Below are positions 4,921 to 43,869 of a stretch of DNA of 64,000 nt, one piece after another. The translations under genes were made by a program, and so were the position numbers. Below the pieces are notes generated by a model, which searched no databases, was not told where the DNA came from, and saw only the letters and a program-made list of their open reading frames with translations. The DNA comes from Hormiphora californensis. Lineage: Eukaryota > Animalia > Ctenophora. Location of the stretch: contig CM035362.1 in assembly GCA_020137815.1 (NCBI GenBank), positions 3,100,001 to 3,164,000 of the forward strand. The letters are read 5' to 3'. Within the stretch, counting starts at the first letter, position 1. Each line of letters starts with the position of its first letter.

Positions 4921-4923
4921 TTC

Positions 4924-5572
4924 ATGGCTACTGGTATAGAGGAACCTTCCCTCGTTAGCTCTACGGGAAACTATCTAGAACAAGTGGACGATTTCGTTTA
5001 CCTTGGTGCCCACCTTAAATCGACGGAGAAGGATTTTAACATTAGGAAGGCTAAGGCCTGGGCATCCTGTCATAGACTCAAAGGAATATGGAAAACTGAC
5101 CTGAGAAGGAGCATTAAGGTAAACCTGTTCCGTACTACTGTAGAAGCCATTCTATTATACGGCGCTGAAACGTGGACCCTTACATCTACTATGGAGAAAC
5201 AATTGGATGGTTGTTATAGTAGGATGCTACGAATGGCGCTTGGCATCAACTGGTGGGATAGGGTCTCTAATGAGGAAGTCTTCCAGAATGTCCCCAGAGT
5301 TTCTGAGACTGTGAGGACTCGTAGACTTAGGCTGGCTGGACATGTCCACAGACACGAGGAGCTAACAGCTCACCAACTGCTGTTTTGGGAACCTGATAGG
5401 GGCTCTAGAAGCCGGGGTAGACCCAAGAAAACCTATATTAACCAGCTCAGGGAGGATACTGGCCTATCTAATGATGGCGATATCAAGAGGCTAATGGAAG
5501 ATCGTGTGCTGTGGCGGACCGAACTGACTGCTCGGACAATGAAGCCGCCTTAAGTCAAAAGTAAGTAAGTCA
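4924..5572 (+). mobile_element. 3' end of an RTE-clade non-LTR retrotransposon (C-terminal part of the RT ORF plus short-repeat tail)
   Basis: ORF motifs LEQVDDFVYLG, LLYGAETWTL, RRLRLAGHVHR and RGRPKKT are typical of RTE ORF C-termini. The ORF is followed by a TAAG-repeat tail. Confidence 0.85.
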
Positions 5573-22848: not shown

Positions 22849-24779
22849 TTAATGGTTTTCGTAGACAATGTTGGTAGCCTCGGGTCGGTGGCAGACCCGA
22901 CACCTCGAGACGTATTGCCTTGAATCCGTGAACGACTGCCTGTTACCTGACTCACTCTCGATATCCTGAAATAATGTTAGAATGAGTTGTGTGTCAACAA
23001 GAATTACAACAGAAATGTGAGACACGTAACCATAGAAGAAGAAGCCATAGCCACATGCTGTTACCATAGTAACATGCTGTTACCATAGGAACCACACATA
23101 CCTTGTCAGCATTCATGACCCATGTGGTTTTCTGTCCTTCCTCACTCTTGATCTTGCATCCCTCGACATCACACTCAGCGATGGTGGCGGGAGAATAGTA
23201 GAGGAGACATGCAGCGGGTTCATCTGAACAGGGGGGAGGGGGTGTTAGCATATGGGAGAATAGTAGAGGAGACATGCAGCGGGCTCATCTGAACAGGGGG
23301 GAGGGGGTGTTAGCATGCGGGAGAAAAGTAAGGGAGACATCTAGCAGGGTTATCTAAACGATGGAGGGGCAGCTTGGTAACGAAATTAACTCTACGAGGG
23401 GTGATTTAGCTGCCAAGGGGGAGGGGGGTTTGTTTGTCTGTTTACCTGTGAGTACACCCATGGCATGGTTATCCAAATCATTCAGCCAGAAACTGTAGCC
23501 GGTCCATTCATCAGACTTAGTTCCAGGAATGAGACGGTTGGGGGAGGCAGCTGTTACGTAACTAGGGAGAGATGAGGTTTTTTGTTACGCAACTAGGGGG
23601 AGATGAGGTTTTTTGTTACGTAACTAGGGGGAGATGAGGTTTTTTGTTACGTAACTAGGGAGATGAAGTTTTTTGTTACGTAACTAGGGAGATGAGGTGT
23701 TTTGTTACGTAACTAGGGGGAGATGAGGTTTTTTGTTACGTAACTAGGGAGATGAGGTTTTTTGTTACGTAACTAGGGGGAGATGAGGTTTTTTGTTACG
23801 TAACTAGGGAGAGATGAGGTTTTTTTGTTACGTAACTAGGGAGATGAGGTTTTTTGTTACGTAACTAGGGAGATGAGGTTTTGTTTACCAAATGATCGGT
23901 ACTTTTCTTTCAGGGATAACGGGATAAGCCCAGCCAGTAGCCGAACAATACAAGTGCAAGGATAAGGAATCAAGGTTCTATTTAAACGAAAATGGTAAGT
24001 CTCCTTTTTAGCAGAATTTGATAACCACCCCATATCAATTTCTGCATCTTGTAACCATGACAACACAATATGTCACAAGACTTTATGTGACACTTACCCG
24101 GCGGGGCAGTCAGGGACAACGCTGTTCATACTGTGGATGACGACCATCTTGAAAATAGATTCACACACAACACACCTGAATTGTAAACTGTAATGAGACC
24201 TGTTCGGTAATGAATTGTAACAAATGAAATTAGAAAATACTGCAAGTTTGATCAGTGGTTGCACGGGAATGAAAAAGGATTCATGGGTCGAAAAACTTAA
24301 AAATACACGGAAATGGATTTTTATCTGAAAGGACTGCTGAGTGAGTTACCGGGAGATATAGCTGAGAAGTTCGTTCCGCCTGGAAGAGTTGAGGATCAGC
24401 TTCCTCCTGGGAAGGGTGTCACTGTAATCATCATCAAACTCATCAGGAGCAGTAGCCAACCATCTGAAGAGGGGGGAGTTTGGTTTTATATGGGGGAGTA
24501 TTATAGGAGGGGAATGTTAGGTTGTACAGTTTATATCAATATCCTGGATTTTTGGATTGATCATTAGAAACCGAAATAGCCATATCAAGCCATATCACAA
24601 CTTATGCTTGATTGAAATGGTTGCTATGGTTACTAGAGTCGCTACTTACGTCGTCTTGTGGGACTCCCCGGCAATGTAGACGGTGTCAATGTTAGCAACA
24701 CCGTAGAAACCAGGATAGAAGTCAGGGAGACAAGATCCGGGACCTCCCAGACTCTGACCCCACCGGGAGTTGCCATCAG
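22849..24779 (-). CDS. Distal (alternative) collagen IV NC1 cassette of gene B; lacks the first NC1 exon and a signal peptide
   Basis: Exons encode DGNSRWGQSLGGPGSCLPDF, WLATAP..YISR, CVVCESIFKMVVIHS..CPAG, WTGYSFW, EPAACLLYYSP..ECDVEGC and YVSRCRVCHRPEA..*. It begins with a phase-1 acceptor at 24779. The link between 24099 and 23551 needs an unresolved small exon or an indel. Confidence 0.8.
23553..23885. repeat. ~31-bp intronic minisatellite x~10
   Basis: Repeat unit GTTACGTAACTAGGGGAGATGAGGTTTTTT. Confidence 0.9.
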
Positions 24780-25284
24780 CTGCACGATTGTTTGTTAGAG
24801 ATCGTTGTTGTCATGGTAACGTCATGACAAATGCTATCGTTTTACGACAAAAACTGACGACACATATTTGAGATTGAACACTCGAGTGTTGATCAATTCT
24901 CAAATACTAAAACGAATAATAAGACTTTTAAGAAACAGACATACAGACAGACAAACGAACAAACATTGAAACAGACAAACAGACGGACAAACATTGAAAC
25001 AGACAAACATACAAACAAACCTCAACGTTATACGAACCATTCTGCTGTACAGTAGTAGAGAAAGTTTCCGCTGTGTCTTCAACACGTGTTTGTGTGTTAG
25101 CTATTGTTATACGTGTGTCTTTGGAACGAGGTCCAAGACTTAATTGAGCGATAAAAAGTTAGGCCAAGACAAAATTAATAAAGGCCAATAGTTTGATAGG
25201 ACATGATATATATCGCGAAAAAGATGAAGCGGCGGGTGGGAGATCGTGAGGGCTCAGATAGAGGGTTGGGGTATGTATGGCTAT

Positions 25285-25340
25285 AGCGGCAGCGTGGTTC
25301 GTTTAACGATAGAGAGGGGTGACCAAGAGCGGCAGCGTGT
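25285..25340 (-). promoter_or_regulatory. Two copies of the putative RNA-pairing motif downstream of the gene B proximal NC1 (25285-25296, 25328-25340)
   Basis: AGCGGCAGCGTG on the plus strand, the reverse complement of the intronic copy at 26981-26993. Confidence 0.65.
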
Positions 25341-25788
25341 GTCACGAGATGTTATAGTAGAGCTGGATCTGATATATTATAATCAGAGAATTCAAAGCTT
25401 TTATCGAGAGTAATAATATCGAGGACAATATAAATTGAGGTTGTTAGAGTGCAGTGTCAGAATGTATAAATCTAGGGATGAGGCCAAAGCAAAATTTTAA
25501 GAGTTTTCCAGCCGTCCACTGCAGAGACAAGATATATCAGGAGCATACCAGATTTTAGCAGCTGGTGCGGGGAATTCATCAGGGGGTTTATATCGGGATA
25601 AAATTGTGGTTGAAATGTGATGTGTATTTTACTTACAGCTATAATACCAATCTGCACGTGCATGAACTACCACGTTGTTTTCAGTTATTTGTATCAGAGT
25701 AGAATTGTTATACTCACAATGGTCAATGATCATCACTCATCAAAATTGCTTAAAATCTAAAATTCACCGTCCATATGATCTCATATAT

Positions 25789-28700
25789 TTACATACGGCC
25801 CAGGCCGGAGTAGTACAGAATCTTCCTGTTCTTGGAGCTCTTGTGCATTACGGTACACCTGCCCAGCATTTGTTCCCTAAACTTCTTCCGGTCAGGTCCC
25901 TCCTCAACATCCGCGTCAATGCCGCCATCATCTAGGTTGTAGTCCTTCAACAGCTCGTTGTTGATGATCCATACGCTCTTGGGAGAGTTTGAAATCCATC
26001 GGACCTCTTGACCGATGGCCTGGACAACCGAGACGGGAGAGTAGTACTGCATGCATGATCCGTGCTCGCCGAGTTGGTTTCCGCTGCCCTCCTTGGCTCC
26101 AGATTGGAAGAGGTAGCTGTACCCCTGGTACAGTTCAACCCAGCCGTTTTGTTGGAGGTATGAGGTATCTGGGTTCTGGTTTCGGTAGCTGTGGACTGCC
26201 ATCAGCCTGTAGTCGGAGACACACACCACGCATCGGCTGAGAAATGAAATGGTGTGGTTTGGATTCGATTGGTTTGGACTTTTGATTGGATTCGATTGGA
26301 TTGTTGTGGTTTGGATTGTCGTGGTTGGTAGTTTGCCAACCCATGGTACAGGTGTCTGGTGTGGTTGCTATAGTGTTGGTCAATCATGAATGTGGGAAAA
26401 GTAGTGATTACTATTCGTCAAATTGACTAGGGAGTGGGGACGTGTAGTTATATATGTATACCTGATATATTTAAGAATCTCATCATGGTTCTCCTCAGTG
26501 TATCGGAGCGCCTGAGGGTAATGCTCTCCCACAGCCACACTATCGGGAATATCCGCAGTAGGCATCCAGAAGGTATACTCATTCTTGGAAATCTGGCAGG
26601 ATGCAGTGTTGCACAGTTGCAGAGGATTCATGTAGAATTCCCTCCAGCAACTACCCGGCTCGGAGATGGTCTGGGCGGTGATCGACTTGGTAACTGGGGG
26701 AGAGGGAAGGAGAGGGATGGTTTAGCTGCTGGATATATCGAGGATGGACTGCTGTTGATCTGGTATGCTCCATGTTGTTCCACACGACCCGGGGAGATAG
26801 AGAGAGAGATGGTGTGTTGGACGGCGTGGATCTGGAACGTTTCCAAATTTGTAACGGTCATTTATTAGAGAATGAATCTGGTCCAAACAAAAAGTTGGCA
26901 AAAAACGATGCAAAAATACTGATTAATTACCGAAGGAGGACCAGATTATTAAGTGAGAGATGCCAGAGAATCGTCGCGAAACACGCTGCCGCTTAGTCAA
27001 AAAAGGAGAGTATGATCTGCCTCAATACAAGAGAGAGATAGGGTACCTACTAACAATAAAACAGAAACAATATACTGGGTGACTACATCTCTCCGAACTA
27101 GTCAGAGAGATGATGCTACCTTTATATTACAAATGAGAAATTGCTTCGTTTGCAAATTAGCTTGCAAACGAACAATATATAATTTGATTCGATATATAAC
27201 AGCCAGACCCCGATTTTCCGGGATCCCCAGGGTTTCGGTAAATCGGGGTCCGACTGTATTTTAAACAACTTTGCAGAATCTGATAATATACTGACAGACA
27301 CAGGACATACAAAACTTACCATCCACAAACATGAAGGAGTATCCAGTCCACAGCTCGGTCATACCATCGAAACATTTGGGGGCGACATTTTTCTGTGAGT
27401 GGAAGGCCACAATGTAGGGGTTCAGTTGGATGCTCTGGGCAGCCTCTCCGGGAGGTCCTGGGGAATGTTATTGTCATTTCGCATCAAGCACCTTGGGAAC
27501 TGTGCCAATTATTTAGCAAAAATTTTGTAAAATCTCCACGCATGGAACAAGGGTTATAGTCATCCTTTTAGTAGTGGTAGACCAAAATCAAAAGGTGCGA
27601 CCCATTTGATTTCTAATTGATCCCAAACTTACCAGTCTTTCCAGCGCTTCCCTTCTCTCCCTTGGCTCCCATAACTCCAGTTCCGGCGATTCCGGCGGGT
27701 CCGGCAATTCCCTTAATACCAGCAATACCTCGGGCACCAGTGGCTCCTCTCTCTCCTCTCTCTCCCTTGACTCCATCAGTTCCCTAGTCAAGATATAATC
27801 ACCATGGTTACCAAAAATAAAGGATTAATTGTATAAGTCATTAAGTAAAATATATATTGTGTATACTTACAGAGGGTCCGGGTGGTCCTGTAATAGTAGT
27901 TCCGTCAGATCCCCTGTCTCCCTGTCGTCCGGGCATTCCTGGGCTTCCGGGGCTTCCATCTCGTCCGGGGTTTCCAGCGGGCCCAGTGTTACCCTTCTCT
28001 CCGGGAGTTCCGGATGTTCCGGGGTTTCCATTAGTTCCAGAAGGTCCGGGAGGACCCCTCATTCCCTGACTTCCAGGAGATCCAGGAGATCCAGCGTTTC
28101 CGGCGGCACCATCGTTACCAGGGGAACCAGGAGATCCAGGGCTACCTCGGTCTCCCTTCATTCCAGCATTTCCCTGTCGACCCTGAGGTCCAATGTCTCC
28201 GTTAGCTCCAGGAGAACCGGCGATACCAGGGTTACCAGGTCGTCCCATATCTCCCTTCATTCCCGCAGCTCCGGGCAGACCAGGTCGGCCAGGCTCTCCA
28301 GCGATTCCGACACCGGGGTTACCGTTAAGACCAGCATCTCCCTTCTCTCCGGGAGTTCCGGGAGTTCCAGGGTTACCGGGGTTTCCCTGGGGGAGGGGAC
28401 GAAAGTTAAAATTGATATTCAGATTGTGCCATTGACCATAAGAAAAGATAGAGTTTAACTGTACTTACATCTCGACCGTTGTTTCCATTCCTGCCTCGGT
28501 CTCCCTTGGCTCCGGGCATTCCATCTCGTCCAGGAGTAGCCCTACCAGGCTCTCCCTTAGTTCCTGCGGCACCAGGCTCTCCGTTCTTTCCGGCAGGTCC
28601 AGGAGGACCGGCGTTACCAGGGTTACCGGGTCGTCCTTGGAGACCAGGCTCTCCATTAATTCCGGCAGTTCCAGGGTTACCCTTTTCTCCGGGAGTTCCG

Positions 28701-31700
28701 GGAGTTCCAGGGTTTCCGGGAAGACCAGACTCACCCTTCATGCCGTTGATTGAGGTGCCCTGCAAGGAATCGGTGTCGGTTGGTGTGAGATTATAATATG
28801 TTACTCGAATTAGCATTGATTTAGGTCACTTGGACATGATTTACTTACAGGTCGTCCGGGCATTCCAGACTCTCCCTTGGCTCCATTCATTCCATTCTCT
28901 CCATTAGCACCAGGATCTCCCTTCGCTCCAGGCATTCCTGGGGTTCCAGGGTTTCCAAATCCAGCTTCTCCCTTGGCTCCGGGCATTCCAGGGTTACCGT
29001 TATTTCCTCGGTCTCCCTTCTCTCCAACGGCTCCATCATTACCAGCGTTACCGGGACCTCCAGGTTGTCCATAATTGTTAATGGTCTCTCCCTTGGCTCC
29101 GGGCATTCCGTTTCGTCCGGGGGTACCAGGCTCTCCCTTAGCTCCAGGCATTCCATTGCCGCTCTCTCCGGGAGGACCTCGGGGTCCAGGAGGCCCATTG
29201 ACAACAGGAGAATCTCCCTTCATTCCGTTCATTCCAGGAGCTCCATCCTTACCGGGCTCACCAGCAGCACCAGCATCTCCCTTCTCTCCGGGCATTCCAG
29301 GGTTTCCATTCATACCATCCTTTCCAGGATTTCCCCGTTCTCCGGGTCGTCCGGCGGATCCAGGAAGTCCCTGGAGTCCCATATCTCCCTTGATTCCAGC
29401 CTGAGCAGCGCCAGGCATACCAGGGTTACCCTTGGTTCCGGGGAGTCCGTTGTTTCCGGGTCGACCATCAGCACCGTTCAGACCTGGGTTTCCTCGGTCT
29501 CCCTTCTCTCCGACCATACCGGGAGTTCCGGGGGTACCAGGGTTTCCAGCGTTACCTCGGTCTCCCTTCTGTCCGTTAAGCCCGTTTCGACCCTAAGAAC
29601 ATGATGGTGTTATAAAATTCTTTATATTCAGCGCATGGGGGTTCAACAATTTATCATTCCATAGTTATTATAACTTACATCGTTTCCAGGTCGTCCGGGA
29701 AGACCATCCTTTCCGTTAGCTCCTGGGGATCCGTTGATACCAGTATCTCCCTTAGCTCCAGGCATACCGGGCATACCATCCTTTCCAGCATTTCCCATCT
29801 CTCCGGGTCGTCCAGGAATGGTCCTACCAGCATCTCCCTTGGCTCCGGGCATGCCGTTAGATCCGGGAAGTCCAGAAGCTCCCTTGTCTCCGTTCATTCC
29901 GGGGGTACCATCGTTACCCCTCTCTCCGTTGATTCCGGGTCGACCGGGCATTCCAGCGTTACCCTATAGGATGACCAAAATTATTCTTCAAGTACTATAC
30001 TTTAAATTTTCATGGCATTTTATTTACATTCCATGATTCATACCTTAGCTCCGTTCAATCCAGGTCGGCCAGCGTCTCCCTTGGCTCCGTCCATACCGGT
30101 AGCATCTCGTCCATTATTACCAGTGTCTCCCTTAGCTCCGGGGGTTCCGGGAGTTCCATTGGCACCATTCTCTCCTCGAGCGCCGTCGTTTCCAGATCGT
30201 CCGGGTAGACCACCGTTACCCTTAGCTCCGGGAGCACCGGGCATACCTTAGGTAAATTATGTCAGATCTTGAACCATGCACCGAAAGTGGTTATTCATTA
30301 ATCGTTTAAAAATTATTTCATTAATTGATGATATTATTAAATTAATGTGCTAATTAGCTAATTAATTACCTCGCTCTCCGGGAGTTCCCATATTTCCAGG
30401 CAATCCAGGCTCTCCCTTGTCTCCTCGGAGTCCACTCTTTCCGGGGGTACCAGGGTTTCCGGGCTCTCCCCTGTTTCCAGGGGCACCATCACTTCCACCT
30501 CGACCAGTGTCTCCCTTGCTACCGGGCATACCGGGGGTTCCAGGGTTACCAGCATCTCCCTTAGATCCAGGAAGACCAGGAGTTCCGGGTCGTCCACCTA
30601 GACCATTTTCTCCCTTTCGTCCGGGGACACCAGGTCGTCCACTATCTCCCTTTGATCCGGGTGTTCCGTATCCAGGGGATCCAGGGGATCCGGGTGTGCC
30701 TCGATCTCCCTTCATTCCCAGAAGTCCGGGGCTTCCATCTCGGCCTCCCTCGCCAGAGTCTCCCTTCTCTCCGTTTCTTCCAGGAGTTCCAGGGGTACCA
30801 GAGTCACCCTTTGCTCCAGGCATACCAGGTAAGGACTCTCCCTTGGCTCCGTTCAGACCGGGAGCTCCAGGCTCGCCATTAGATCCGCCAAATCCGGGTG
30901 TCCCTCGGTCTCCCTTGCTTCCGGGTCGTCCAGCATCTCCCTTTTCTCCATCTAATCCTCGGGCTCCATTCAAACCATCTTTTCCGTTTCGTCCGTTAAG
31001 ACCATCTTTACCGGCGTCTCCCTTGGCCCCAGCTCGTCCATCAGTACCTCGGTCTCCCTTGGCACCGCTCATTCCAGGTAGTCCATTTCGTCCAGGGTTT
31101 CCTCGGTCTCCCTTCTCTCCGGGAAGACCAGATAGAGTGACGGCAATACCAGGTGAACCCCTGTCTCCCTTCTCTCCGATTCCGGGAGCACCGGGTCGGC
31201 CCTGGTTTCCGGGCATACCGGGTGCACCAGTGTCTCCCTTGGCTCCAGCGAATCCGGGGGTTCCCTGGACAAACGGAATATAATATATTGATTGGTTTAT
31301 TGAATAAACTAAACTTGTGTAGATTTAATTTTTCAAGACTAGCTATGTGGTGGACAGACAAACTTACATCTTTTCCGGGTGTTCCAGCCTCTCCAGCTCG
31401 GCCAGAAGTTCCCTTGGCTCCGTTCACGCCCTCTTTACCAGGCAGACCAGGGGCACCCCTGTTTCCATTTTGACCGGGAGAACCCTTCACTCCGTTAAGT
31501 CCGGCTGATCCATCGTTACCGGGTCGTCCGGGTTGTCCACTGTTTCCTTTTTGTCCAGGAGCACCGGGTCGGCCGTTAGATCCGGGACCTCCGGTGTTAC
31601 CTTTCTCTCCGTCCCGACCGTTCTCTCCCCTCTCGCCGGGGGATCCTGTAATGATAAAGGATCAAATTTAGGTCCTCGTGAAGGGATACACCTGGCTAGT

Positions 31701-34092
31701 GTATTGGCTTAGTTGGGTGATCGGATAATTGTTTATGAGCCTTATTTAGATTGACAGCACAGAGAGAACAATAAAAACTCTGTCAATAACTATTATAAAA
31801 CATTACTGTGGGGTAAAGTGCTCTTACCCCTGGATCCAGGTCGTCCCTGTTCTCCCTTGGCTCCATTCATTCCATCTCGTCCGTCGTTTCCATCTCGTCC
31901 AGGGTTACCCTTGGCTCCGTTCAGACCAGGCTCTCCGATGGTTCCAGGGGTACCGGCGAGACCGGCAGCACCCTTCAGACCAGGAGCACCAGGTCGTCCG
32001 TCGTTACCAGGAAGACCAACCTCTCCCTTGGTTCCGTTGCAACCGTCCACACCGGGGGTTCCGGGGACACCGTCAACTCCATCGCGACCGGCGTAGCCAG
32101 TTAGTCCGGCATCACCGGGCTCTCCGGCAGGTCCAGCTGGACCGGTTAGACCCCGATCTCCAGAAGGACCGGGAGGTCCATCGTTACCCGGTTCACCCTG
32201 AACAATTTGAAATTAGAGCTAGCAGGAACCGACCGAATCAGGAAATACTGGTCCCTGATTGGCTGATAACCAGTCACGTGACCTAAATAACGAGTTCTGA
32301 TTGGTTGTTTACTTGTTTCGGTCGGTTTCTGAGAGCTAGATGGTTGGTATTGTTTTTTGATTTCAGATGGTTGTTGATTGTGAGCATATATGATCAGTGA
32401 CTTCATTTAAAACAGTTAGTGATCTTGTCCCCTAAACTACTTTGGGCCATTAGTCACATTGGGTAATTGTTTACAGTTCAGCTCGATCGAATCAGGAAAT
32501 ACTTATCCCTGATTGGCTGATAACCAGTCACGTGACCTGAATAACGAGTTCTGATTGGTTGTTTACTTGTGTCGGTCGGTTCCTAACAGTTCAGCTCGAT
32601 CTACAGATATATTGGCTAGTTTTTGTTTACTTTCCCACGTGTATTGTGATTGGTATTGGAAGTGGTGGCGGTCACAGTGAGGTGTGAATTTTCACACAGG
32701 ACACCCTGCAGCACAACAAAACAAGTTGCCAAGTAACCAAGCAAGTGGCAACATGGTTCGGAATAGGTCGCGATCAGAAGCTCTGATCATGATCAATCAC
32801 CATTTAAAGTCAGAAATAGAGCCGACCAATCATCACGTCGTGGAAGTGCCACTACCATGTCATGTTTGTGGAAGTACCACTACCATGTTGTCACGTTTGA
32901 TGCTGGTAGTCGGTAGTTCAATGAACTGTTATAATGAGAGAATAAACATACAGTCGGACCCCGATATATCGGGCACCCCGATTTACCGGGCAAAACCCTT
33001 TCCCCCGAGCATCCCGGTTAATCGGGGTCCGACTGTAATACGATCAGTGAATTTCACAGTCTAAATGTCGAATAAAGCGGGGCAATTATCTTCCAAAATC
33101 CGAAGGAGCTTTAGTGGATTTATGGGTAGTATAACGACATGGTAAAGTGATCTGGGGCTTTGATAAAGTTTGATCATTCCAGTTTGTGTATGAATCCAGT
33201 AACGGTACCATACTTAAACAGTCGGTAATCAGTTTCCCATTATCATACGGGCAATTCATGTTTATGGGTGATGCAATATGAGCGGATTGATGTTATAAAA
33301 TTGATGTTTGAAGATTGAAGCTACTTACCCTGTCACCCTTCATTCCGGTAGATCCGGGGACTCCCCTCTGGCCAGGGGAACCCTGTTTACCTGGGGGACC
33401 AGCCTCGCCAGGTCGACCCTGAGAAATGTTACGGGTTAGTTGGTTTTAGTCAATCATGGGCTATGACATAGAATCGGGACATGACATAAAATATCATGAT
33501 CTCATCTCATGATGGGTCATATAATCAAATTGGATCCAAGTTTTAGAGCGAACTACTGCCCTATCTCTTTCATAATAGGGGCTCACAAAACAGGTGTGAC
33601 ACGCCTTTGCTTCCTGCTACTAATTAGTACATGTATTTTATGCAAGGGGAAGCATCCCCTCTCAGTTACAACTAGGTGCACTCTCATAACATATGTTTAA
33701 ATCAGTTATATGCCTGGGAAATGTTGGTTGCTTGTTGTTCTAATTTCTACTAACAGTACTGTATGGGTCACGGGAATGACAGCTCTTTCCGGTTTCAATC
33801 AACCAACCAATCGAGTTGGTCAAAAGAAAACGTTTTGTTTTGACCACTTCGATCGAGATAAGTCTAACCGGGAATAAAATAACTTTTTACCTTCCTCGAC
33901 GATCCTTTAGTTTCTAAGACAGGAACCTACTAACAATAAATGAAATCCAATTCAACTATTGTATGTACTCACTCGGGCACCCTTGATGTAGGGAGGTCGT
34001 TGTCCGCAGTTGTTACATGCGGGATCCGCCTCAGGATCGGCCTCAGTCCGGGCCAAAGCAAATAATGTCACTAACAGAATCAACCACTTCAT
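25789..34092 (-). CDS. col4a: Collagen IV alpha chain, gene B (isoform ending in the proximal NC1)
   Basis: Signal peptide [16 protein letters not shown], then [16 protein letters not shown], the 7S-end motif GCNGTKG and interrupted Gly-X-Y exons. NC1 exons lie at 27457-27320 (AFHSQ..C..LWTGYSF), 26693-26462 (EPGSCWREF) and 26236-25789. Confidence 0.92.
26981..26993 (-). promoter_or_regulatory. Putative intronic docking motif of gene B
   Basis: ACACGCTGCCGCT on the plus strand, in the intron between the shared NC1 exon and the proximal cassette. The same motif is at the same position in gene A. Confidence 0.65.
32951..33035. mobile_element. Tc1/mariner-like mini-MITE (TIR CAGTCGGACCCCGAT, TA TSD); other copies at 27200-27256, 46825-46909 and partial near 47045
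   Basis: TA|CAGTCGGACCCCGAT...ATCGGGGTCCGACTG|TA. Confidence 0.85.
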
Positions 34093-35741
34093 CTTTTATT
34101 GAGTTGTGTGGTACAGCATATACCACTTTCCTATAGACACGAGAGAGTAGGAGTTATTGAGTTGGGTGGTAAAGTGCATATACCACTTTCCTAGATGGCG
34201 TAGGGTGGATTGTTTAAAATTGGTAAAGTGTTTTGTCAACTCAAGTTAATCAGGATAATGTTATATACCAAAGCTGCAATGCAAGTAAAGAGAAATGACT
34301 ACTACAAAAAGCTCTAGAGCCGTGTTCCGGTTTATAGTGGCCCCGCATTAATGAAGCGCCGCAAGCATATGACAAAGTGGCAATTTAATGCAAGCGACCC
34401 GTCGCCATTCATGTTGCACGTGCAAATTTAAAATGCAAGGATATAAGGTCTCCTCGTATTTAATAAACGGGAACATATAACCGGAGAGAGACATGTAACG
34501 GGAACATATAATATTTAAGCGGAGAGAGATGCAGTAGTAGCACTCCTCTGTCCCTCCCGGAAAAGCTGGAAGGGAGACTATCCGGCGAAAAGGAGCTCTG
34601 CAGTGTGCAAACTAAAACTCTTGCAACTTCACAACAGCTCAGAGAGCTCATGCAGTAGCCTTGGAGTCGAGAGGCGGGGAGGAAGGAAGCATAGTCGCGT
34701 CGTGGCGATTATATAAATTTGCGTTTATTCTACTGGTTGGATGAGAAGCCTGAGGAAAAGCAAACACACTGAACACACATGGCCTGTACCTAACTCACAC
34801 GTTCATTAACTTATCCATGTTGTAGATGGAAACTCCTCTTAGCCTTACCGGAGTTCTACTCTACTCTAGACTCCGGCCCCGTTACCATAGCAACTAACTC
34901 CGGCCCCGATCTAAGAGACGCAAAACCAAAAAGCTGCTGACTGCTTGTACCTATTTCTCTCTCTGCGGCAGTAGTGCGTCCGCGGCTTTGTGTGTTGTTT
35001 TTCCGCCCCTCACGCTCATTGGCTAAGCGTGGGTTGAAGGTGCTAACTGTTGCGTGAGAGGTGCTGCCTGCCCGCTGCTGAGTTGCACGTGTGTGAGCTG
35101 GGGTGACAGAGTCTTAATCTGTTTAACTCATCTCTCAACTTGGTGTGCCCCCTCCTCTCAATCTGCCACTTTACTTGAGGAGGGAGCTGCTTTTTAACCT
35201 AATCAAGGTCACCCCCAAACACCAAAAAACGACAATTTGCTGTGTGAGAGCTTGGTAAAAATCCCATACTGCTTTTCCGCCTTCAGAGGCAGCCTGCAGC
35301 GTCCAACTCATTCACCCACACACACACAGGTGTATAGCCTTATGTCTCTCAGTCGTGGAGAGAGACGTGCTGGGGTGAAGAGTGAAAAGTCCCGAAATTA
35401 AAAAAACGGGTGCTTTTGTCGCCCAATAGCAAGTTGACACGGGGCTTTATGCTATCAGGGAGCTTTGTGATTGGTGTAAATTGTAGCCCTTTGCCTTAAC
35501 ACATTATTGCTGATGTGTTAGTTGCAACTGACTTGTGAGCACTTAGATGCTTGTATTATATTGAAAATTCACGGTTTTCTTAAATTCTTTTTTAAGTGCC
35601 CATCAGTTTTCTGGTTTAGCCCTCTTCTATAGAATAGACTTGATTTAGTTTTGCGTGAAATGGGTTAAATGCTCAAACAATATACAGATTTCTCAAAACA
35701 CTGTTGCAATTGTCCATTTCATCAATATATCCTCAGCTGTT

Positions 35742-36944
35742 TTATTCCTGTCGGAAAAGCTTTGCCTCGGGTCGTCGGCATACCACGCATCGTGATACAT
35801 ATGGGCTAGAGTCTCCAAAGGACTTGTAGTCAGAATCTCGCTGAAAAAGGAGTAGTTTAGTGGTTTGTGTGATAGTTAATAGTGGATTATCTTCTTGCAT
35901 ATAATATTATATTATCATAATTTCTAATTCTTCGAACTTTCTAAAACTTATAATTTGCCCCCGAATTTACCTGTGTGTCACTCATGAGCCAGGTGTTTCG
36001 GGTTCGTTTCTTCAGCCTGCATTCCTCGTTGTTACATGAAACAAGGGGAGTCTGGGAGAAGTCCAGGAGACACGATCCCTGGGAATCTGAGCAGGAGAAA
36101 GGTCGAGTTAGTTCTTTTGATATCATTTTCATATATATAGAAGCTGCACGAGTTTTAAAATAGTTTACACAGAATCAAAAATCGGCATTGTATTTTCTTA
36201 CCGGCCTGGGTTCCAACTCCAAATTTATCAGAAGACACCTGCCAGAAACTGTATCCGCACCAGTTCTCCTCCGCAACACCGGGGTTGATGTGTTTGTTGG
36301 GGTTAGGCACGATCTGCAATGTTGTATTTGTTTTGGCTTGGATATACAACAATTTTAAATTCGCCTTCACACATTTTGTGTTACAGTTCATTTGGTAAGA
36401 CGTGTGTAACCTGGTAACCGGTTTTTGTTTTTTCAGGTTACTTAGCCACACGCTGAGCAAACCGCATACCGACCGGGTAACTATGTGTAACTATGGCTCC
36501 CCCTTACCTGGTAACCAGTGGGGCAAGCGTGGTTCTCAACCTCAGCGGGGTGCGTGTTGGACCTTGTATGGACGACCGTCAGTCGGAAAATACTCTCGCA
36601 AACAACACATCGGGAAACGTAGTTCTTAGCTCGATCGTAGTCCAGTCCTCGAGAGGGAAGGTCATCAAGGAATTCATCTTGGTTGCCATCCAGAGAGGCA
36701 ATGGACAGCCACCTGTGAAGGGGAGAAGTTGATGAAGATGCGGAATATATGTCTTGATAAAGGAGTAAACGGTTGATTTTATGAAGGAGTTAACTTACAT
36801 GGTGCTGTGTTGGTCAATGTTCCTTTCAGCAGGTGCTCTCTCCGTTTCCATTGTCAGAGCAAGTTCCAAAGAATTCAGGTTTGAAGTTCAACATACAACT
36901 ACCGGGGTCACCCAAGTTTTGGGTCCATTTGTTGCTGTTATCAA
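35742..36944 (-). CDS. Distal (alternative) collagen IV NC1 cassette of gene A; 5 exons, with one apparent +1 indel near 36828
   Basis: Phase-1 acceptor at 36944. Encodes DNSNKWTQNLGDPGSCMLNF, YVSRCVVCESIF..CPTGY, WCGYSFW, SQGSCLLDFS..SCNNEEC and [13 protein letters not shown]. Confidence 0.82.
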
Positions 36945-37234
36945 CTGTTTTTGGGGGATTTGTTAGGACGGACCGACAGACAGACAGACATATTGGCACA
37001 CATTCCAGAGATGGTGGTAGTAGTTGAAGTAAAGTCCTCTGTAGGTCTCTGATACAGCTCACCAAGATAAGAGAAATTGTGTTAAACGAAATTGGAGAGA
37101 CAGGAAGGAGTTAAAAAGAGAAAATGGGATCGTTTTAGTTTAAACCGTGTTATAGCTGGTCGAACACCCATATTTCGATTGAGGCAGTACTAATTACCCC
37201 TACTAATTAGTTAATTACTAATTAAGAGACGGCT

Positions 37235-37288
37235 GCGGCAGCGTGGAGGTTACAGGGCTACTTCAACCACAGGTTTAGCGGCAGCGTG
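37235..37288 (-). promoter_or_regulatory. Two copies of the putative RNA-pairing motif downstream of the gene A proximal NC1 (37235-37246, 37277-37288)
   Basis: GCGGCAGCGTGG and AGCGGCAGCGTG, both complementary to 38710-38722. Confidence 0.65.
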
Positions 37289-37632
37289 ACGTGGTCTATA
37301 GATCGGAGGGTCAAAGAGATATTTCAAGAAATTCTGATGGTGCCATGATTTAGAAAATATATGGGGGGAACTAGTTGGAGAAATAGTTTTAGGAAGACTG
37401 TAAATTTTAGGTGAGAATATATGTCTATCTAATATCCCTCTCAGGATCCCTCTCTCTTTTATGGTTTGGGACTTGAATACTTGGCCAGCTCCTCCTCCTA
37501 TTGGTTCCCGGTCCAAACTTCGCAGAACATACATACAGCGGGGTTATGGGATTTGCAAATAGAGACCATTACAATACAACATTGTCATATTTTCACAGTC
37601 TTATTTCATGGTTGATTTCCATCACTCTCTCT

Positions 37633-40600
37633 CTAGTTGTCGGAGTAATACCTAAACCGATCATTGGCATTCCTCTTGATCACGTAGCACTTTCCTAGCC
37701 TGTTCTGGATGAATGCCTGTCTGTCCGCACCGTTGGTGACATCGTACTCAGTGCTCTCCCATCGGTCATCCTCGGATAGATAACTGTAGTCGAGGACCCA
37801 AGTGGCGTGGAAATTAGGAGAGATCCATCTCACCTCAGCGCCATTCGTCTGGGCAGCCATGATGGGCGAGAAGTGTTGGAGGCACGAGCTGTGTCGGGAG
37901 AGTTGAGTTCCCCAACCGACACCCGATCCGACTTGGTAGGCGAAACTGTATCCCTCATACAGCTTAGCCCAGCCGTACCGAGAGGCAGCCTGGAGTTTCG
38001 CCTCGGGCTTGTCTTTGGAGAAGGAGTGAAGGGCCATGATCTTGTAGTCCGAGATACAGACAGTGCACCGGCTAGTGGGAGGGGAGGGAGCTAAGTAAAA
38101 GGGGGGGGGACTAGTGGGAGGGGAGGGGAGCTAAGTAAAAGGGGGGCAACTTCGAAAATATTTCTCATCTATGTATAACTCACACAGTTGGTTGATATTT
38201 GATGGAGGGTGGGGGTGTAACTTACCTAATATAGTTAAGGACAGTCTCTCGATCATCCAAGGCTGAGGTAGACTCAGGGTAGTACTCAGTGGGAGTTTTG
38301 CCCTCAGGGACGGCGGTTGCCAGCCAGAAAGAGTATCGAGAGTTACTGTTTGTGCAACTGTCATCGGTACACATCATCATGTTGTTCACATAGAAGTCCC
38401 TCCAGCAACTGCCAGGCTCAGATAGAGACTGTCCGGCGGCGAAATCGAAAGCTGTGGGACGGGGTGGAGTGACGGTTAGTTGGGTCTATCATCTTCAGGG
38501 GATGGCGTGTTCTGCGAGAGGATGGTCCGGGAGGGCGAGGAGGAGCTGTCCAAGTCATCGTGTGATGTCCATTATATATCCGGGAGAGATGCTGGTCTTT
38601 GTATAAATACACAAGAGAGAAATGAGAGAGAGGGAGGGAGGGATATATAGTAGATAGAGATTTAGAAAAAGAAGATTGGGTTGATGTATCCCTGCGACTG
38701 CACACCCAGCCACGCTGCCGCTTAACGATCTCTGAGACAAACTGACAAACTGACAAACTGAACCAGTCATATTACATCATAACAAAACAGAACAGGTGCA
38801 GTCGAATTGTATATATAAGGCAATAATATATTAATAACAGATTTGTACAAGCACCTACCGTCAATGAACATGAAAGAGTATCCCCTCCACAACTCGGTCA
38901 TACCATCCAGGCACTTGGGGTACTCGGTCCTCTGGGAATGGAAGGCCACAATGTAGGGGTTCAACTGGATGCTCTCTCCGGGCTCTCCGGGGTATCCAGG
39001 GGGACCTTGGTCACCTGAATAACAGCAACAACAGGTCAATGATGATCTAATATTGTGGGAGGGAAATCAGTAGAAAGTGGGACAAGTACACAAATTCATC
39101 AAGGAGAGCTTGTCGAGAACTACTAGCAGGAACCGACCGAATCAGGAAATACTGGTCCCTGATTGGCTGATAACCAGTCACGTGACCTAAATAACGAGTT
39201 CTGATTGGTTGTTTACTTGTTCCGGTCGGTTCCTGACTAGCAAATCTTACTAAATCTTACCCTTAGCTCCAGCGGGACAATCGTTGATGTTGGCACTAGT
39301 TCCAGGAGGTCCCTGAATACCCTTGATTCCAGCAATTACCAGTAGGTCCAGCGAACACCTCGGTTTCCCTTAGCTCCAGGAGCACCAGGGGCACCCTGCA
39401 ATGTGTACGTTTTATTAGATATTGAACTTTCTCATTCCGGCTGAACAAGCTTATTGTTGAAATCACAATCAAGATGAACAAACGGGCTTATCTGGGTGAA
39501 GATGTTTTGTACTTACAGCAGGTCCAGCCAAGTCCACCGGAGGTAGATCCAGGAGGTCCACTGGGTCCAGGAGGTCCAGCTCGTCCATCATTTCCAGATC
39601 GTCCGGGTGTTCCAGGGTTTCCGGGTGTTCCTCGCTCTCCCTTAGCTCCGGAAAGACCGGGGGTACCAGCAGCTCCAGGGTTTCCGGGGCTTCCAGGGCT
39701 TCCTCGAAGACCAGGAGTTCCTGGTGAAGTGAATTTCGTCGGGAATTGTACGTCTATTTCATATCAAATGAGAACTATTATAGTGAAATGAGCATATTAG
39801 TAAGCTGTGATATACATACCAGGGTTTCCAGCAGCTCCAGCGTTTCCGGGTGCTCCAGCAGCACCTGGTGCTCCAGGGTTTCCAGCGTTACCTCGGTCTC
39901 CCTTGGCACCATCACGTCCAGGATTTCCGGGGGATCCAGGGGATCCCATGTTACCGGGGGCACCGGCGGCACCAGGGTTTCCAGCGGGCACCAGTATCTC
40001 CCTTAGCTCCACCCATACCGGGGGATCCGGGTCGTCCATCATTTCCGGGTCGTCCAATTCCATCCATTCCAGCTCGGCCGGCAGCTCCCTTCTCTCCGCC
40101 AGCACCAGGTGCACCAGCAGCTCCGGGGTTTCCTCTAGCTCCAGGATTTCCGGGTCGACCGGCATTACCCTTAGCTCCGTTCGCTCCATTTTGTCCAGGT
40201 GATGCTCGTCCAGCAGTCTCCCTTAGCTCCTGCGGCTCCAGGAGTTCCGGGGTTACCAGGGTTTACCAGGGTTTCCTCGGGCACCAGGGTTTCCTCCTCG
40301 GCCAGCGTTACCCTTGGCTCCATCTCGGCCAGCGGCACCATCACTTCCTCGCTCTCCGGGAGTTCCAGGGTTTCCATCTTTTCCGGGGGTACCGGGTTCT
40401 CCTCGGGCTCCGGGGCTGGAAGTTCCCTGAGAAAAAGTGTTGTTATTTTCTATCTAATCGGCGTTCGCACATAAAAAATAATAGATTTCTATTTTTTAGT
40501 TTTACCGCTGTCCACTATAATACTTACGGGTCGTCCAGGCATTCCAGAGTCTCCTTTAGTTCCTCCAATTCCGGGGGTTCCAGGGGTACCAGCATCTCCC

Positions 40601-43600
40601 TTAGCTCCGGGCAAACCGGGGGTTCCGGGGGTTCCAATACCATCAGCTCCCTTAGCTCCAGGAGCACCGGGGTTTCCGGCTCGTCCAGCATTTCCTTGGT
40701 TTCCCTTGGCACCAGCGGCACCAGCGGCATCCGGGTAGACCTGGGGTTCCATAGTTGTTCACAGTTTCTCCCTTGGCACCAGGTCGTCCAGGCATACCGG
40801 GGCTACCAGAATCTCCCTTGGCTCCGTTGGCTCCTGCAATACTCTCACCGGGGGTTCCTGGAGGTCCAGGGGGTCCAACGACAACACCTGAATCTCCCTT
40901 AGCTCCGGCTCGACCGGGTTGTCCATCACGTCCAGGGTTTACCAGCGAGACCAGCGTCTCCCTTAGCTCCGCTTGCTCCGGGGTTTCCGGGAAGACCATC
41001 TTTTCCGGGGTTTCCTCGGTTGCCACCTCGGCCAGGCATTCCATTGTTTCCTGGGTTTCCTCGGTCTCCCTTGGCTCCGGGCGTTCCGATTCCAGGGGCA
41101 CCAGGGTTTCCCTTAGCACCACCCATTCCAGGGCTTCCAGGTCGTCCGTCACTTCCGGGCATACCAGCAAGACCGTTTTCTCCCTTGGCTCCGGGAGTTC
41201 CTGGGTTTCCGGCGGCTCCTGGGTTTCCAGGGGTTCCACCGTTACCCTTAGCTCCAGGCATTCCACTTCGTCCATCGTTTCCGGGTCGTCCAGGAAGACC
41301 ATCCTTTCCGGGGTTACCAGGGGATCCGGCAGCACCGTTATCTCCCTTGGCACCAGGGGCACCGGGGGATCCAGCATTACCAGGGGATCCAGCGTTTCCA
41401 GCTCGACCAGGGATAGATCGTCCAGGAGAGCCGGGGGCACCGTCTTTTCCGGGGGATCCAGGAGTACCAGCATCTCCCTTAGTTCCACCCATTCCGGGGG
41501 TTCCAGGGGTTCCTCTCTCACCGGGGCTTCCATCACGTCCGGGCATACCGCCGTTACCCTTCTCTCCGTTTCGTCCGGGGGTTCCAGCCATACCCTTGGC
41601 ACCGGGCATACCAGTAGCATCCAAACCATCCTTACCACGGTCTCCCTTCTCTCCGCTTGTTCCAGGTTGTCCGGGGGTTCCGGGCTCGGCTCGGGCTCCG
41701 GGTTGTCCAGCACGTCCAGGTAGTCCAGGGCTACCCTTTTCACCGTTCATGCCATCGTTTCCTCGGTCTCCGGGTGTTCCGGGTGTTCCGGGAATACCGG
41801 CATCTCCCTTATCTCCCCTCTGTCCTGGTGTTCCACCGTTACCGGCTCGTCCGGGCTCTCCTCGTCGTCCAGGCTCACCACTTCCGCCAGGTCGGCCGCT
41901 CTCTCCCTTGCCTCCGGGCAGACCAGGGGCACCGCTAGCCCCTCGGTCTCCCTTGGCTCCGTTCAGACCCTATAACAGGGAAATAGACGTTGTCAGGGAA
42001 TATGATCTAGAAATGCCTAACGATAAAAAAGATCGCAATGCCGGGAGACCAACTGATTTATTAAGAAAGAAATGCAGTACTTACAGGAGATCCAGGTCGT
42101 CCAAGAAGTCCACCATCTCCCTTTCGTCCGGGGACACCAGCTCGTCCAGCTTCTCCCTTAGCTCCGGGAGTTCCGTATCCGGGGGATCCAGCGGAACCGG
42201 GTGTACCTCGGTCTCCCTTCAATCCAGGTGCACCACCAGCACCAGCTCGTCCGGGCTCTCCAGTGTTACCTTTTGCTCCGGGTCGTCCAGGCTCGCCAGG
42301 TCGTCCAGAAGTTCCCTTCTCTCCGTCCATTCCTCCGACAGTGTTACCCTTAGCTCCGGCGCTTCCGGGTGTTCCCCTTTCTCCCTGTTGTCCGGGGGCA
42401 CCTGGGGTACCTCGGTCTCCCTTCTGGCCATCACGTCCGGCAGTTCCCTTAGCGCCAGGTCGTCCATCAACTCCAGCTTGTCCGTCGAGACCAGCCTTTC
42501 CAGGCTCACCAGCTCGGCCAGGCTCTCCTCGCTCACCATTTCGTCCAGGTGTACCTCGGTCTCCCTTGGCTCCACCGGCTCCGGGCAGACCATTTCGTCC
42601 GGGGGTTCCAGCGTTACCCTTCTCTCCGGGGGTTCCGGGGAGTTGGACGAAGTTTCCGGGCATACCAGCATCTCCCTTCTCTCCGAGTCCGGGAGCACCG
42701 GGTCGTCCTTGGTCACCAGGCAAACCAGGTGTACCGGCGTCTCCCTTTCCTCCGGGGGATCCAGGGGTTCCCTAAAATGATAAAATAATATGTCAGAAAC
42801 GTTAGTTACAAAATGTGCATCCAATCTAATCTTCGAATGGGTTTTGGAAAAGAAACTTACGTCAGCACCGTTGTTTCCGGGTCGTCCAGCTGATCCCCTG
42901 TCTCCACGGGCACCGGGTTTTCCGTCCTTTCCGTTCTGTCCAGGCAGTCCTCGGCCACCGCCAAGTCCATCTCGACCCTTGGGTCCAGCGGTTCCCGGGG
43001 TACCATCGTTACCATTTCGGCCAGGTGTACCACGGTCACCCTTCAGTCCTGGGGCTCCAGGTCGACCATCAGATCCACCTCGACCAGGCTCTCCCTTGCC
43101 TCCGTTCCGTCCTGGTTCTCCCCTGCCTCCAGCAGATCCAGGAGTTCCAGCTCGTCCTTGGTCTCCCTTGGCTCCGGCGGTTCCGGGTCGTCCGTCATTA
43201 CCGGCTCGTCCCTGGTCTCCCTTGCCACCATCCCGTCCGGGTCGTCCAGGCTCTCCAGTGGATCCGGGAAGTCCAGAGGCTCCCTTCTGTCCGGTTTGAC
43301 CGCGGCCTCCGTCCTTACCAGGGTAACCTTGTTCTCCCTTGGTTCCGTTGCAACCGTCAACTCCGGGGGTTCCGGGAATACCGTCAACTCCATCTCGGCC
43401 GGGATATCCAGCTTGGCCAGAATCTCCAGACTCTCCAGTAGGTCCAGCGGGTCCCTGAAGACCTCGGTCTCCCTGGGGTCCGGGGTTACCGGGCATGCCG
43501 GAGGATCCTCGTTCTCCCTTGATTCCGGTGGCTCCAGGGCTACCCCTCAGGCCAGGAGGACCAGAAGGTCCAGCGGGACCAGGTTCACCAGTTCGGCCCT

Positions 43601-43869
43601 AAGAAGGGTGATTGTAAGTTATGGGCTAGTCACTTTTATACGATCTAGTTTTCTAAGACTTCCTAACAACAATAGTTGGTCATGTGACTAATTGAAACCT
43701 GAAACCCAATTGTTGTTGTACTTACTCGGGCACCCTTGATGTAGGGAGGTCGTTGTCCGCAGTTGTTACATGCGGGGTCCGCTTCGGCGTCAGCCTCGGC
43801 GAAGGCCTCAGCAGAGACATGCACTGCAAACAGCAGCGCACTCAGCACAAACACTGTTCTAAACTTCAT
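37633..43869 (-). CDS. col4a: Collagen IV alpha chain, gene A (isoform ending in the proximal NC1); several frameshifts at 39.3-41 kb, probably assembly indels
   Basis: Signal peptide [20 protein letters not shown], then [23 protein letters not shown] and long Gly-X-Y exons. NC1 exons lie at 39014-38859, 38451-38226 and 38071-37633. Confidence 0.9.
38710..38722 (-). promoter_or_regulatory. Putative intronic docking motif of gene A
   Basis: CCACGCTGCCGCT on the plus strand, about 140 nt into the intron after the shared NC1 exon. Confidence 0.65.

What the first reader, a model, noticed from the sequence alone, without database searches (positions are those of the whole stretch)
22849..39014. 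Switchable NC1 domains: two collagen IV genes each carry two mutually exclusive NC1 cassettes behind one shared NC1 exon
Seen: in gene B the first NC1 exon (27457-27320, ...[11 protein letters not shown]) ends at a phase-1 donor. It can join either the proximal cassette (acceptor 26693, [16 protein letters not shown], stop 25789) or a second NC1 remainder downstream (acceptor 24779, ADGNSRWGQSLGGPGSC, stop 22849). Gene A has the same design: shared exon 39014-38859, proximal cassette 38451-37633, distal cassette 36944-35742 (VDNSNKWTQNLGDPGSC). Both distal cassettes start exactly where the shared exon stops, in the right phase, and have no convincing start or signal peptide of their own. Established: NC1 drives chain selection and hexamer network formation in collagen IV. 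Inference: each gene yields two chains with the same triple helix but different assembly domains, a splicing-based route to network diversity that I do not know from other collagen IV genes.
Basis: partly seen in the sequence, partly recalled or inferred. Interest (0 to 1): 0.95.

Follow-up and report, generated by a model that had tools for sequence, protein, structure and literature searches.

The report
Switchable collagen IV assembly domains
In what is likely a comb jelly, two neighbouring collagen IV genes each splice their RNA onto either of two very different end pieces, so one gene encodes two chains with the same rod but different assembly domains, and a short conserved pair of complementary intron sequences likely steers the choice.

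Summary
Confirmed and extended. Two tandem ctenophore-type (Group I) collagen IV genes each splice a shared exon (end of helix plus the first ~35 NC1 residues) to either of two terminal NC1 cassettes that are only 27-32% identical. All four joints appear in RNA contigs, and two full-length mRNA contigs run from signal peptide to the distal cassettes. This rules out independent standalone NC1 genes. All 59 listed RNA differences in these exons are synonymous. Like cassettes group across genes, so the design predates the gene duplication; other ctenophore-like lineages use both types. New: a 12-nt intron box after the shared exon has two reverse-complement copies downstream of the proximal stop, in both genes and in another species' genomic contig (6 hits in 64 kb, 0.04 expected). 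It is predicted to loop out the proximal cassette, as in Drosophila Nmnat and PGRP-LC. Proximal NC1s lack four conserved cysteines yet fold in models. Untested: proteins, regulation, partner choice. The window has a probable 1-base error in gene A's distal cassette.

The parts
35742..43869 (-). Collagen IV gene A (ATG at 43869 to distal stop); ortholog-like to Mnemiopsis ML17502a
   Evidence: L001 maps exon by exon, 92-97% identity over coding exons; last helix exons and shared exon 203/133/156 bp after removing the window's extra bases, as in ML17502a
38859..39014 (-). Gene A shared exon (last Gly-X-Y triplets and NC1 start, Pfam C4 2-30); phase-1 donor
38711..38722 (-). Gene A upstream intron box (12 nt), 138 nt after the shared donor
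37633..38451 (-). Gene A proximal NC1 cassette: exons 38451-38226 and 38071-37633, own stop; cysteine-poor second C4
   Evidence: joints in RNA contigs; 25 of 25 listed differences synonymous
37234..37288 (-). Gene A two reverse-complement copies of the box (37288-37277; 37245-37234, one mismatch), 345 and 388 nt after the proximal stop
35742..36944 (-). Gene A distal NC1 cassette, 5 exons; window has one extra base near 36828 that RNA lacks
   Evidence: all 4 internal joints in 4 of 4 runs; L001 and P0005 open
22849..34092 (-). Collagen IV gene B (ATG at 34092 to distal stop); ortholog-like to Mnemiopsis ML17501a
   Evidence: L003 maps exon by exon; exons 516/151/138/130 bp as in ML17501a exons 17-20
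27320..27457 (-). Gene B shared exon; phase-1 donor
26982..26993 (-). Gene B upstream intron box (same 12 nt as in gene A), 328 nt after the donor
25789..26693 (-). Gene B proximal NC1 cassette: exons 26693-26462 and 26236-25789, own stop
   Evidence: joints in X8; P0004 is a natural joined relative, about 92% identical; 18 of 18 listed differences synonymous
25285..25339 (-). Gene B two reverse-complement copies of the box (25339-25328; 25296-25285), 450 and 493 nt after the proximal stop
22849..24779 (-). Gene B distal NC1 cassette, 6 exons
   Evidence: joints in X4 and X8, loose end fixing acceptor 23561; L003
53968..56227 (+). 3' end of collagen IV gene C (opposite strand, head-to-head with A): one ordinary NC1, no second cassette and no box seen

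Best explanation
[quoted passage not shown] Shown: the gene layout, the four joints in RNA, full-length distal mRNAs, open frames, and the conserved 1+2 box layout in three loci. Inferred: the proximal cassette is the default (nearest acceptor, stronger pyrimidine tract, own stop). If cleavage and polyadenylation behind it occur before the polymerase has made the complementary copies 345-493 nt past the stop, the mRNA ends there. If transcription runs on, the box pairs over 1.4-1.7 kb and the shared donor joins the weaker distal acceptor. About 86% of the NC1 is swapped, including the motifs that clip chains into trimers and hexamers, so the two chain forms probably differ in partner choice and disulfide content.
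For: Joints 38859-38451 (X1 side 154; X3, X4 side 30), 38859-36944 (X2, X3, X4 side 30), 27320-24779 (X4 side 59; X8 side 30), 27320-26693 (X8 side 30). In X8 one contig runs from helix exons to exactly 27320 and two others leave it, one into each cassette. L001 and L003 are full-length signal peptide-helix-shared-distal contigs. Of the 11 true loci (L012 is a false hit), 4 mRNA contigs are proximal-joined (L002, L005, L007, L008), 5 distal-joined (L001, L003, L004, L006, L009), 1 ends in the shared exon and 1 is genomic. 59 of 59 listed RNA-versus-window differences in NC1 exons are synonymous. Cassette identity is 40-41% like-with-like across genes and 27-32% otherwise; a gene-wise clade of A proximal and A distal is rejected, p-AU 2.7e-5. 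Box: 6 matches in 64 kb, 0.04 expected, all in these two introns. The same layout of one box plus two reverse copies is in L011, another species, and it is the only word of 8 or more letters shared by all three upstream introns and by all three spacers. Core duplex -25 to -28 kcal/mol; whole-intron folding pairs the box with the first copy in 3 of 3 loci; gene B extends the helix to about 20 bp with a G-C to U-A change beside the core. Pyrimidine fraction 0.76/0.95 at proximal and 0.52/0.52 at distal acceptors. AlphaFold2 pLDDT 90.9 (P0004, proximal) and 88.7 (P0005, distal). A P0004 homotrimer scored 0.58 against best control 0.01, runs agreeing in at least 49% of contacts, pLDDT at least 68; this mark was reached by 21 of 30 solved pairs and 0 of 23 single chains, but NC1 trimers are solved, so the pass may be from memory. 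Precedent: Nmnat boxes around a proximal terminal exon (PMC2724269 passages), PGRP-LC 3' cassettes (PMC6191721 abstract and Discussion).
Against: RNA evidence is assembled contigs from plankton metatranscriptomes, mostly 90-99% like the window; there are no raw or long reads and no same-individual DNA. A-distal then rests on side-30 joints plus L001/P0005, and B-proximal on one side-30 joint plus P0004. The 12-nt core shows no covariation, so a protein- or RNA-binding motif is not excluded. Isolated 12-nt inverted matches 0.3-3 kb apart occur elsewhere in the window by chance or from mobile elements. L011 ends before any distal cassette. Poly(A) sites were not located. L006 (distal) and L007 (proximal) are only 90.7% identical over 4159 nt (89% protein), so they could be sister-species orthologs or young paralogs. 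Nothing shows that both proteins are made or that they assemble differently.
Confidence: 0.8

Rival explanations
1. Alternative terminal cassettes are real, but the conserved boxes act as single-stranded binding sites (for a protein or small RNA, or at DNA level) rather than by pairing with each other.
For: The 12-nt core is invariant in all three loci; in PGRP-LC the docking site also acts as a linear enhancer (PMC6191721 Discussion).
Against: Orientation is always one sense copy upstream and two antisense copies downstream of the skipped cassette. Flanking complementarity extends differently in each locus (15 bp in L011, about 20 bp with one mismatch in B). Global folding selects the pair in 3 of 3 loci. 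With two partner copies a compensated change needs three hits, so invariance is expected (inference).
Confidence: 0.15
2. The distal units are separate standalone NC1 genes (as described for ctenophores) with their own promoter and signal peptide, and the joints are read-through noise.
For: Standalone NC1 genes with signal peptides exist in ctenophores (PMC5395295, sections 7 and 10). Short hydrophobic ATG frames occur in the spacers.
Against: Distal units lack C4 positions 1-30 and the first cysteine. Full-length mRNAs join them to the helix. No loose end shows another exon joined at 24779. Mnemiopsis models join the shared exon to the distal type. The hydrophobic frames are translated microsatellite-like sequence.
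Confidence: 0.02
3. One cassette type (most plausibly the cysteine-poor proximal one) is a decaying duplicate whose transcripts give no working protein.
For: Proximal cassettes lack 4 of the 6 cysteines of the second C4; published Mnemiopsis models contain only the distal type.
Against: 43 of 43 listed differences in proximal exons are synonymous. The same four cysteines are missing in 6 of 6 full-length proximal rows from several lineages, as whole pairs (pairing recalled). Frames are open, and the model and trimer are confident.
Confidence: 0.03

Closest known systems
Ctenophore Group I collagen IV cluster (Mnemiopsis ML17501a-ML17504a; Fidler et al. 2017, PMC5395295: passages, sections 7, 9, 10, supplements 2-4)
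   Same: Four-gene head-to-head layout; matching exon sizes and exon ends (516/151/138/130 bp for B; 203/133/156 bp for A); collagen helix plus two C4 repeats.
   Different: The paper lists one NC1 per gene (the distal type) and the word stem 'splic' does not occur in its main text. Here genes A and B each have two NC1 cassettes. It reports five Group I NC1 subgroups for four genes; whether one is the proximal type could not be checked, because figures are not held.
Drosophila Nmnat long-range stem (Raker et al. 2009, PMC2724269: passages)
   Same: Complementary intron boxes surround a proximal acceptor that leads to a terminal exon with its own poly(A) site; pairing is needed for distal acceptor use and gives distinct C-termini.
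   Different: Here whole paralogous domains of 2 versus 5-6 exons are exchanged, the downstream box is doubled and lies well past the proximal stop, and pairing is predicted, not tested.
Drosophila PGRP-LC / CG42235 / Pip 3' variable regions (Pan et al. 2018, PMC6191721: abstract and Discussion)
   Same: Common 5' part spliced to one of several duplicated 3' cassettes that encode alternative recognition domains, steered by docking-selector pairing and coupled to 3'-end formation.
   Different: There each cassette has its own upstream selector competing for one docking site. Here both complementary copies lie before the same (distal) cassette, so it looks like a skip switch rather than competing selectors. 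It is conserved across paralogs and species in a non-bilaterian matrix gene.
Known collagen IV splicing: C. elegans let-2 exons 9/10 (PMC2119826 abstract); COL4A5 41A/41B (PMC7160674, listing only); human alpha3(IV) NC1 exon-skipping forms (recalled, not found)
   Same: One collagen IV gene gives several chains by splicing.
   Different: These alter short stretches of the helix or truncate the single NC1; none swaps in a second complete paralogous NC1.
Ctenophore standalone NC1 genes (ML047918a; PMC5395295)
   Same: NC1-coding exons downstream of no obvious helix, if read alone.
   Different: The distal cassettes have no signal peptide or NC1 start and are spliced to the helix.

Membership tests
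Collagen IV chain | Signal peptide, long interrupted Gly-X-Y helix, C-terminal NC1 of two C4 repeats | tested here: met
   L001 and L003: 16 Collagen stretches plus 2 C4; P0004 and P0005: 2 C4 each; hydrophobic N-termini seen; 13 of 13 PDB hits of P0004 are collagen IV NC1
Collagen IV chain | Twelve conserved NC1 cysteines (six disulfides per chain; PMC13098435 passage: 36 per hexamer) | tested here: not met
   Proximal forms have 8, B distal 10, A distal 13; divergent members rather than another family
Collagen IV chain | NC1 trimer and hexamer assembly | tested here: inconclusive
   P0004 homotrimer model 0.58 versus control 0.01, possibly from memory of solved trimers; hexamer and hetero-assembly not tested
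Ctenophore Group I collagen IV | Four-gene head-to-head cluster with exon structure like ML17501a-ML17504a | tested here: met
   B and A on minus, C and the start of D on plus; exon sizes match
Ctenophore standalone NC1 gene | Own signal peptide and complete NC1 without helix | tested here: not met
Alternative 3' variable region (PGRP-LC / Nmnat type) | One donor spliced to alternative terminal cassettes, each with its own stop | tested here: met
Alternative 3' variable region (PGRP-LC / Nmnat type) | Conserved complementary intron boxes flanking the proximal cassette | tested here: met
   3 of 3 genomic loci examined
Alternative 3' variable region (PGRP-LC / Nmnat type) | Pairing shown to control the choice (disruptive and compensatory mutation) | not testable with these tools
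   needs a minigene or genome editing
Alternative 3' variable region (PGRP-LC / Nmnat type) | Own poly(A) site behind each cassette | tested here: inconclusive
   Proximal contigs run 40-53 nt past the stop and end at read ends; no canonical AATAAA within 300 nt of any of the 4 stops
Internal mutually exclusive exons (let-2, Dscam type) | Alternative exons rejoin common downstream exons | tested here: not met
   each cassette ends in its own stop

The most novel reading that the evidence does not exclude
An ancient RNA-structure switch, identical in both highly similar-designed Group I genes, flips their NC1 domains together, so ctenophores build two distinct collagen IV networks (a cysteine-poor proximal type and a canonical distal type) on the same triple helices in different tissues or stages. 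This would replace by splicing what vertebrates do with separate alpha1-alpha6 genes.
Probability: 0.35. Interest if true: 0.92.

Novelty: new variant of a known kind. Interest (0 to 1): 0.82.

Why it matters
NC1 is the recognition module that selects collagen IV chains and links protomers into networks (PMC5395295, PMC6211539). Here the domain is exchanged on an unchanged helix, a natural domain-swap experiment on the open question of how far NC1 alone dictates chain selection. It means ctenophore collagen IV 'gene' counts from transcriptomes may mix genes with isoforms, and that genome models miss half the NC1 forms of these genes. It also gives a candidate long-range RNA-pairing splicing switch in one of the earliest-branching animal lineages, conserved across a gene duplication and across species; one search found no paper on such switches in ctenophores.

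Tried and rejected
No whole genome is held, so other collagen loci of this animal could not be searched. A word-based search with A proximal exon 2 for longer proteins found 0 of 163 candidates. A proximal-type profile for proteins over 469 aa found 2 of 4451 (P0001 and a snail chain), so no named ctenophore record was reached and species are not identified. Contig depth was not used to rank isoforms. Runs X3 and X7 gave no piece on gene B's NC1 exons, which is no evidence of absence. One search's joint, variant and loose-end tables were cut (29, 51 and 123 rows not shown; 2 variant rows), so one search counts shown coding rows only. No cross-gene joint (A shared exon to a B cassette) is among the shown rows. 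Whether proximal and distal cassettes are sister groups is unresolved (p-AU 0.47), so internal duplication versus capture from another collagen IV gene is open. Proximal and distal labels of non-window rows came from similarity, so their clustering (100/99 each) is partly circular. Haplotype duplication is rejected by 27-32% cassette identity. A de Bruijn mix-up between genes is unlikely because the last 30 nt of the two shared exons differ. L012 is a false hit (integrase-like DNA by eye). Fold searches did not run. The count of 52 of 62 interface residues from the cassette (by hand) only mirrors its 86% share of the chain and is no enrichment. One alignment was in the wrong frame and was discarded.
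Full report
SETTING. The window holds four collagen IV genes: B and A on the minus strand, then C and the start of D on the plus strand, head-to-head with A. This is the layout of the ctenophore Group I cluster (PMC5395295, section 7). Exon sizes match the Mnemiopsis models in that paper's supplement: gene B has 516/151/138/130-bp exons like ML17501a exons 17-20, with the same exon-end residues, and gene A has 203/133/156 bp like ML17502a once the window's extra bases are removed. The animal is therefore most likely a ctenophore; the species was not determined and no genome is held.

OBSERVATION. Each gene has a shared exon ending at a phase-1 donor after Pfam C4 position 30, then a two-exon proximal cassette with a stop, then a five-exon (A) or six-exon (B) distal cassette with a stop; all introns are GT-AG. 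Joined in a script, A-proximal, B-proximal and B-distal are open. A-distal has one extra base near 36828 that 4 of 4 RNA runs, L001 and P0005 lack. Gene A carries 9 such insertions against L001 and gene B none against L003, which points to assembly error.

RNA. In four plankton metatranscriptomes (two studies) the A shared donor joins the proximal acceptor in 3 of 4 and the distal acceptor in 3 of 4, both in X3 and X4; all four internal distal joints are in 4 of 4. For gene B (four runs, three studies) the distal joint is in X4 and X8 and the proximal joint in X8, where one contig runs from helix exons to the donor and two others branch from it; X3 and X7 do not cover the region. Several joints have only 30 letters on the shared side. 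That is the overlap expected at a 31-mer graph branch (inference) but is below the tool's bridging rule. Independent assemblies close the gap: L001 (4950 nt) and L003 (4916 nt) run from signal peptide through the helix into the A and B distal cassettes, and P0004 joins the B shared exon to a B-proximal cassette about 92% identical to the window's. All 59 listed coding differences between RNA and window in the NC1 exons are synonymous (tables were cut, so these are the best-supported rows). These are assembled contigs of the same or close species, not reads from this animal.

AGE AND SPREAD. A-proximal is 40% identical to B-proximal and A-distal 41% to B-distal, against 27-32% for the other pairs. 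A tree gives one proximal group (16 rows, 100/99) and one distal group (9 rows, 100/99) (labels of non-window rows are from similarity). The grouping of A-proximal with A-distal is rejected (p-AU 2.7e-5), while proximal plus distal as one clade is neither shown nor rejected (p 0.47). So the two-cassette design predates the A/B duplication. Other lineages, about 70% nucleotide identity away, use both types: L002, L005, L007, L008, P0011 and P0018 are proximal-joined; L004, L006, L009, P0001 and P0006 are distal-joined. L006 (distal) and L007 (proximal) are collinear at 90.7% over 4159 nt and diverge at the same junction; they may be orthologs in sister species or young paralogs. The published Mnemiopsis models use the distal type only; whether a proximal cassette hides in their introns could not be checked.

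CONTROL ELEMENT (new). The 12-mer AGCGGCAGCGTG lies 138 nt (A) and 328 nt (B) after the shared donor. Its reverse complement lies twice, 43 nt apart, 345-493 nt after each proximal stop. The window has exactly these 6 matches (0.04 expected; 0 of 100 shuffles). L011, a genomic contig from another species (proximal cassette 55% and 46% identical to A and B), has the same order: shared exon, box, two-exon proximal cassette, two reverse copies; it ends before any distal cassette. It is the only word of 8 or more letters common to all three upstream introns and to all three spacers. The core duplex is -25 to -28 kcal/mol, flanks extend it differently in each locus, and folding the whole 1.6-2.5 kb intron pairs the box with the first copy in 3 of 3 loci. 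The longest perfect complement was reached by 1, 1 and 0 of 300 shuffles. Against this: the core never varies, and lone 12-nt inverted matches occur elsewhere in the window, so the weight lies in conserved position and orientation.

PROTEINS. The splice falls at the equivalent of human NC1 residue 37, the start of the first clipping motif (residues 37-45; PMC6211539 passages), so the other trimer and hexamer motifs lie in the cassette. All 6 full-length proximal rows lack the same four cysteines of the second C4 repeat; distal forms keep them, and window B-distal lacks one pair in the first repeat. AlphaFold2 folds a natural proximal (pLDDT 90.9) and distal (88.7) NC1 confidently. A proximal homotrimer scored 0.58 against best control 0.01 (contact agreement at least 49%, pLDDT at least 68; mark reached by 21 of 30 solved pairs and 0 of 23 single chains). 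NC1 trimers are solved, so this shows likeness only.

MECHANISM. Shown: alternative terminal NC1 cassettes used in RNA. Inferred (about 0.75-0.8): the proximal cassette is the default, with the nearer acceptor and richer pyrimidine tract (0.76 and 0.95 versus 0.52). Distal use needs transcription past the proximal 3' end and pairing of the box with a downstream copy, which loops out 1.4-1.7 kb. The ratio would be set by competition between proximal cleavage and pairing. Inferred more weakly (about 0.6): the two NC1 types differ in partners or network properties. Speculative (0.35): the identical box lets both genes switch together.

COMPARISON AND NOVELTY. The logic resembles Drosophila Nmnat (PMC2724269, passages) and PGRP-LC (PMC6191721, abstract and Discussion). 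Known collagen IV splicing affects short helix exons (let-2, PMC2119826 abstract; PMC3459649 passages note little evidence of COL4A1/2 splicing in vivo) or, from recall only, truncates the alpha3 NC1. Searches listed no paper on swapped NC1 cassettes. 'Splic' has 0 hits in the main texts of PMC5395295, PMC12141075, PMC13098435 and bioRxiv 10.64898/2026.02.02.702917 (passages seen, plus sections 7, 9, 10 and supplements 2-4 of the first). Figures, the 118 chain sequences, bioRxiv supplements, subscription journals and genome annotation databases were not seen and might list the isoforms without comment. The scan's own index had no look-alike. Verdict: a real, conserved new variant of alternative 3' cassette splicing, apparently new for collagen IV.

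Noticed in passing
window 23561-23870, 23223-23330, 38071-38135: Three internal acceptors of the cassettes are tandemly duplicated with the start of their exon (about eleven ~29-nt copies before 23561). RNA uses the last copy at 23561 and 38071; L003 fits 23223.
   Followed up: partly
window 35742-43869: Gene A has 9 one-base insertions against mRNA contig L001 while gene B has none against L003: local assembly error, or less likely a broken allele.
   Followed up: partly
window 3400-4900: Homopolymer-rich, garbled-looking sequence, probably a poorly polished stretch, next to a 222-codon frame at 4885-5550 that looks like the tail of a non-LTR retroelement protein (recalled; Pfam gave only DUF6451 at 0.005).
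   Followed up: partly
window 13147-13764, 15005-15953, 57594-58815, 59679-61924: Long inverted repeats with internal tandem units, like foldback or miniature transposons.
   Followed up: no
window ~32240-32340, ~32490-32590, ~39125-39235, ~56575-56665: A ~110-nt element with short terminal inverted repeats recurs in collagen introns and has many matching contigs in RNA run X4.
   Followed up: no
window 11639-12487 (-): Single long frame with a weak Major Facilitator Superfamily match (E 0.0013).
   Followed up: partly
P0013/P0147 and P0014; P0018: Two different proximal-type exons are each recorded on an ENA contig of 40,878 nt, possibly genes A and B of another ctenophore. P0018 joins a shared-exon end like that of Mnemiopsis ML17502a to a proximal-type cassette, a lead that lobates have it too.
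   Followed up: no
window 59570-64000 (+): Start of a fourth collagen IV gene (D) with extra N-terminal exons; its NC1 lies outside the window.
   Followed up: no
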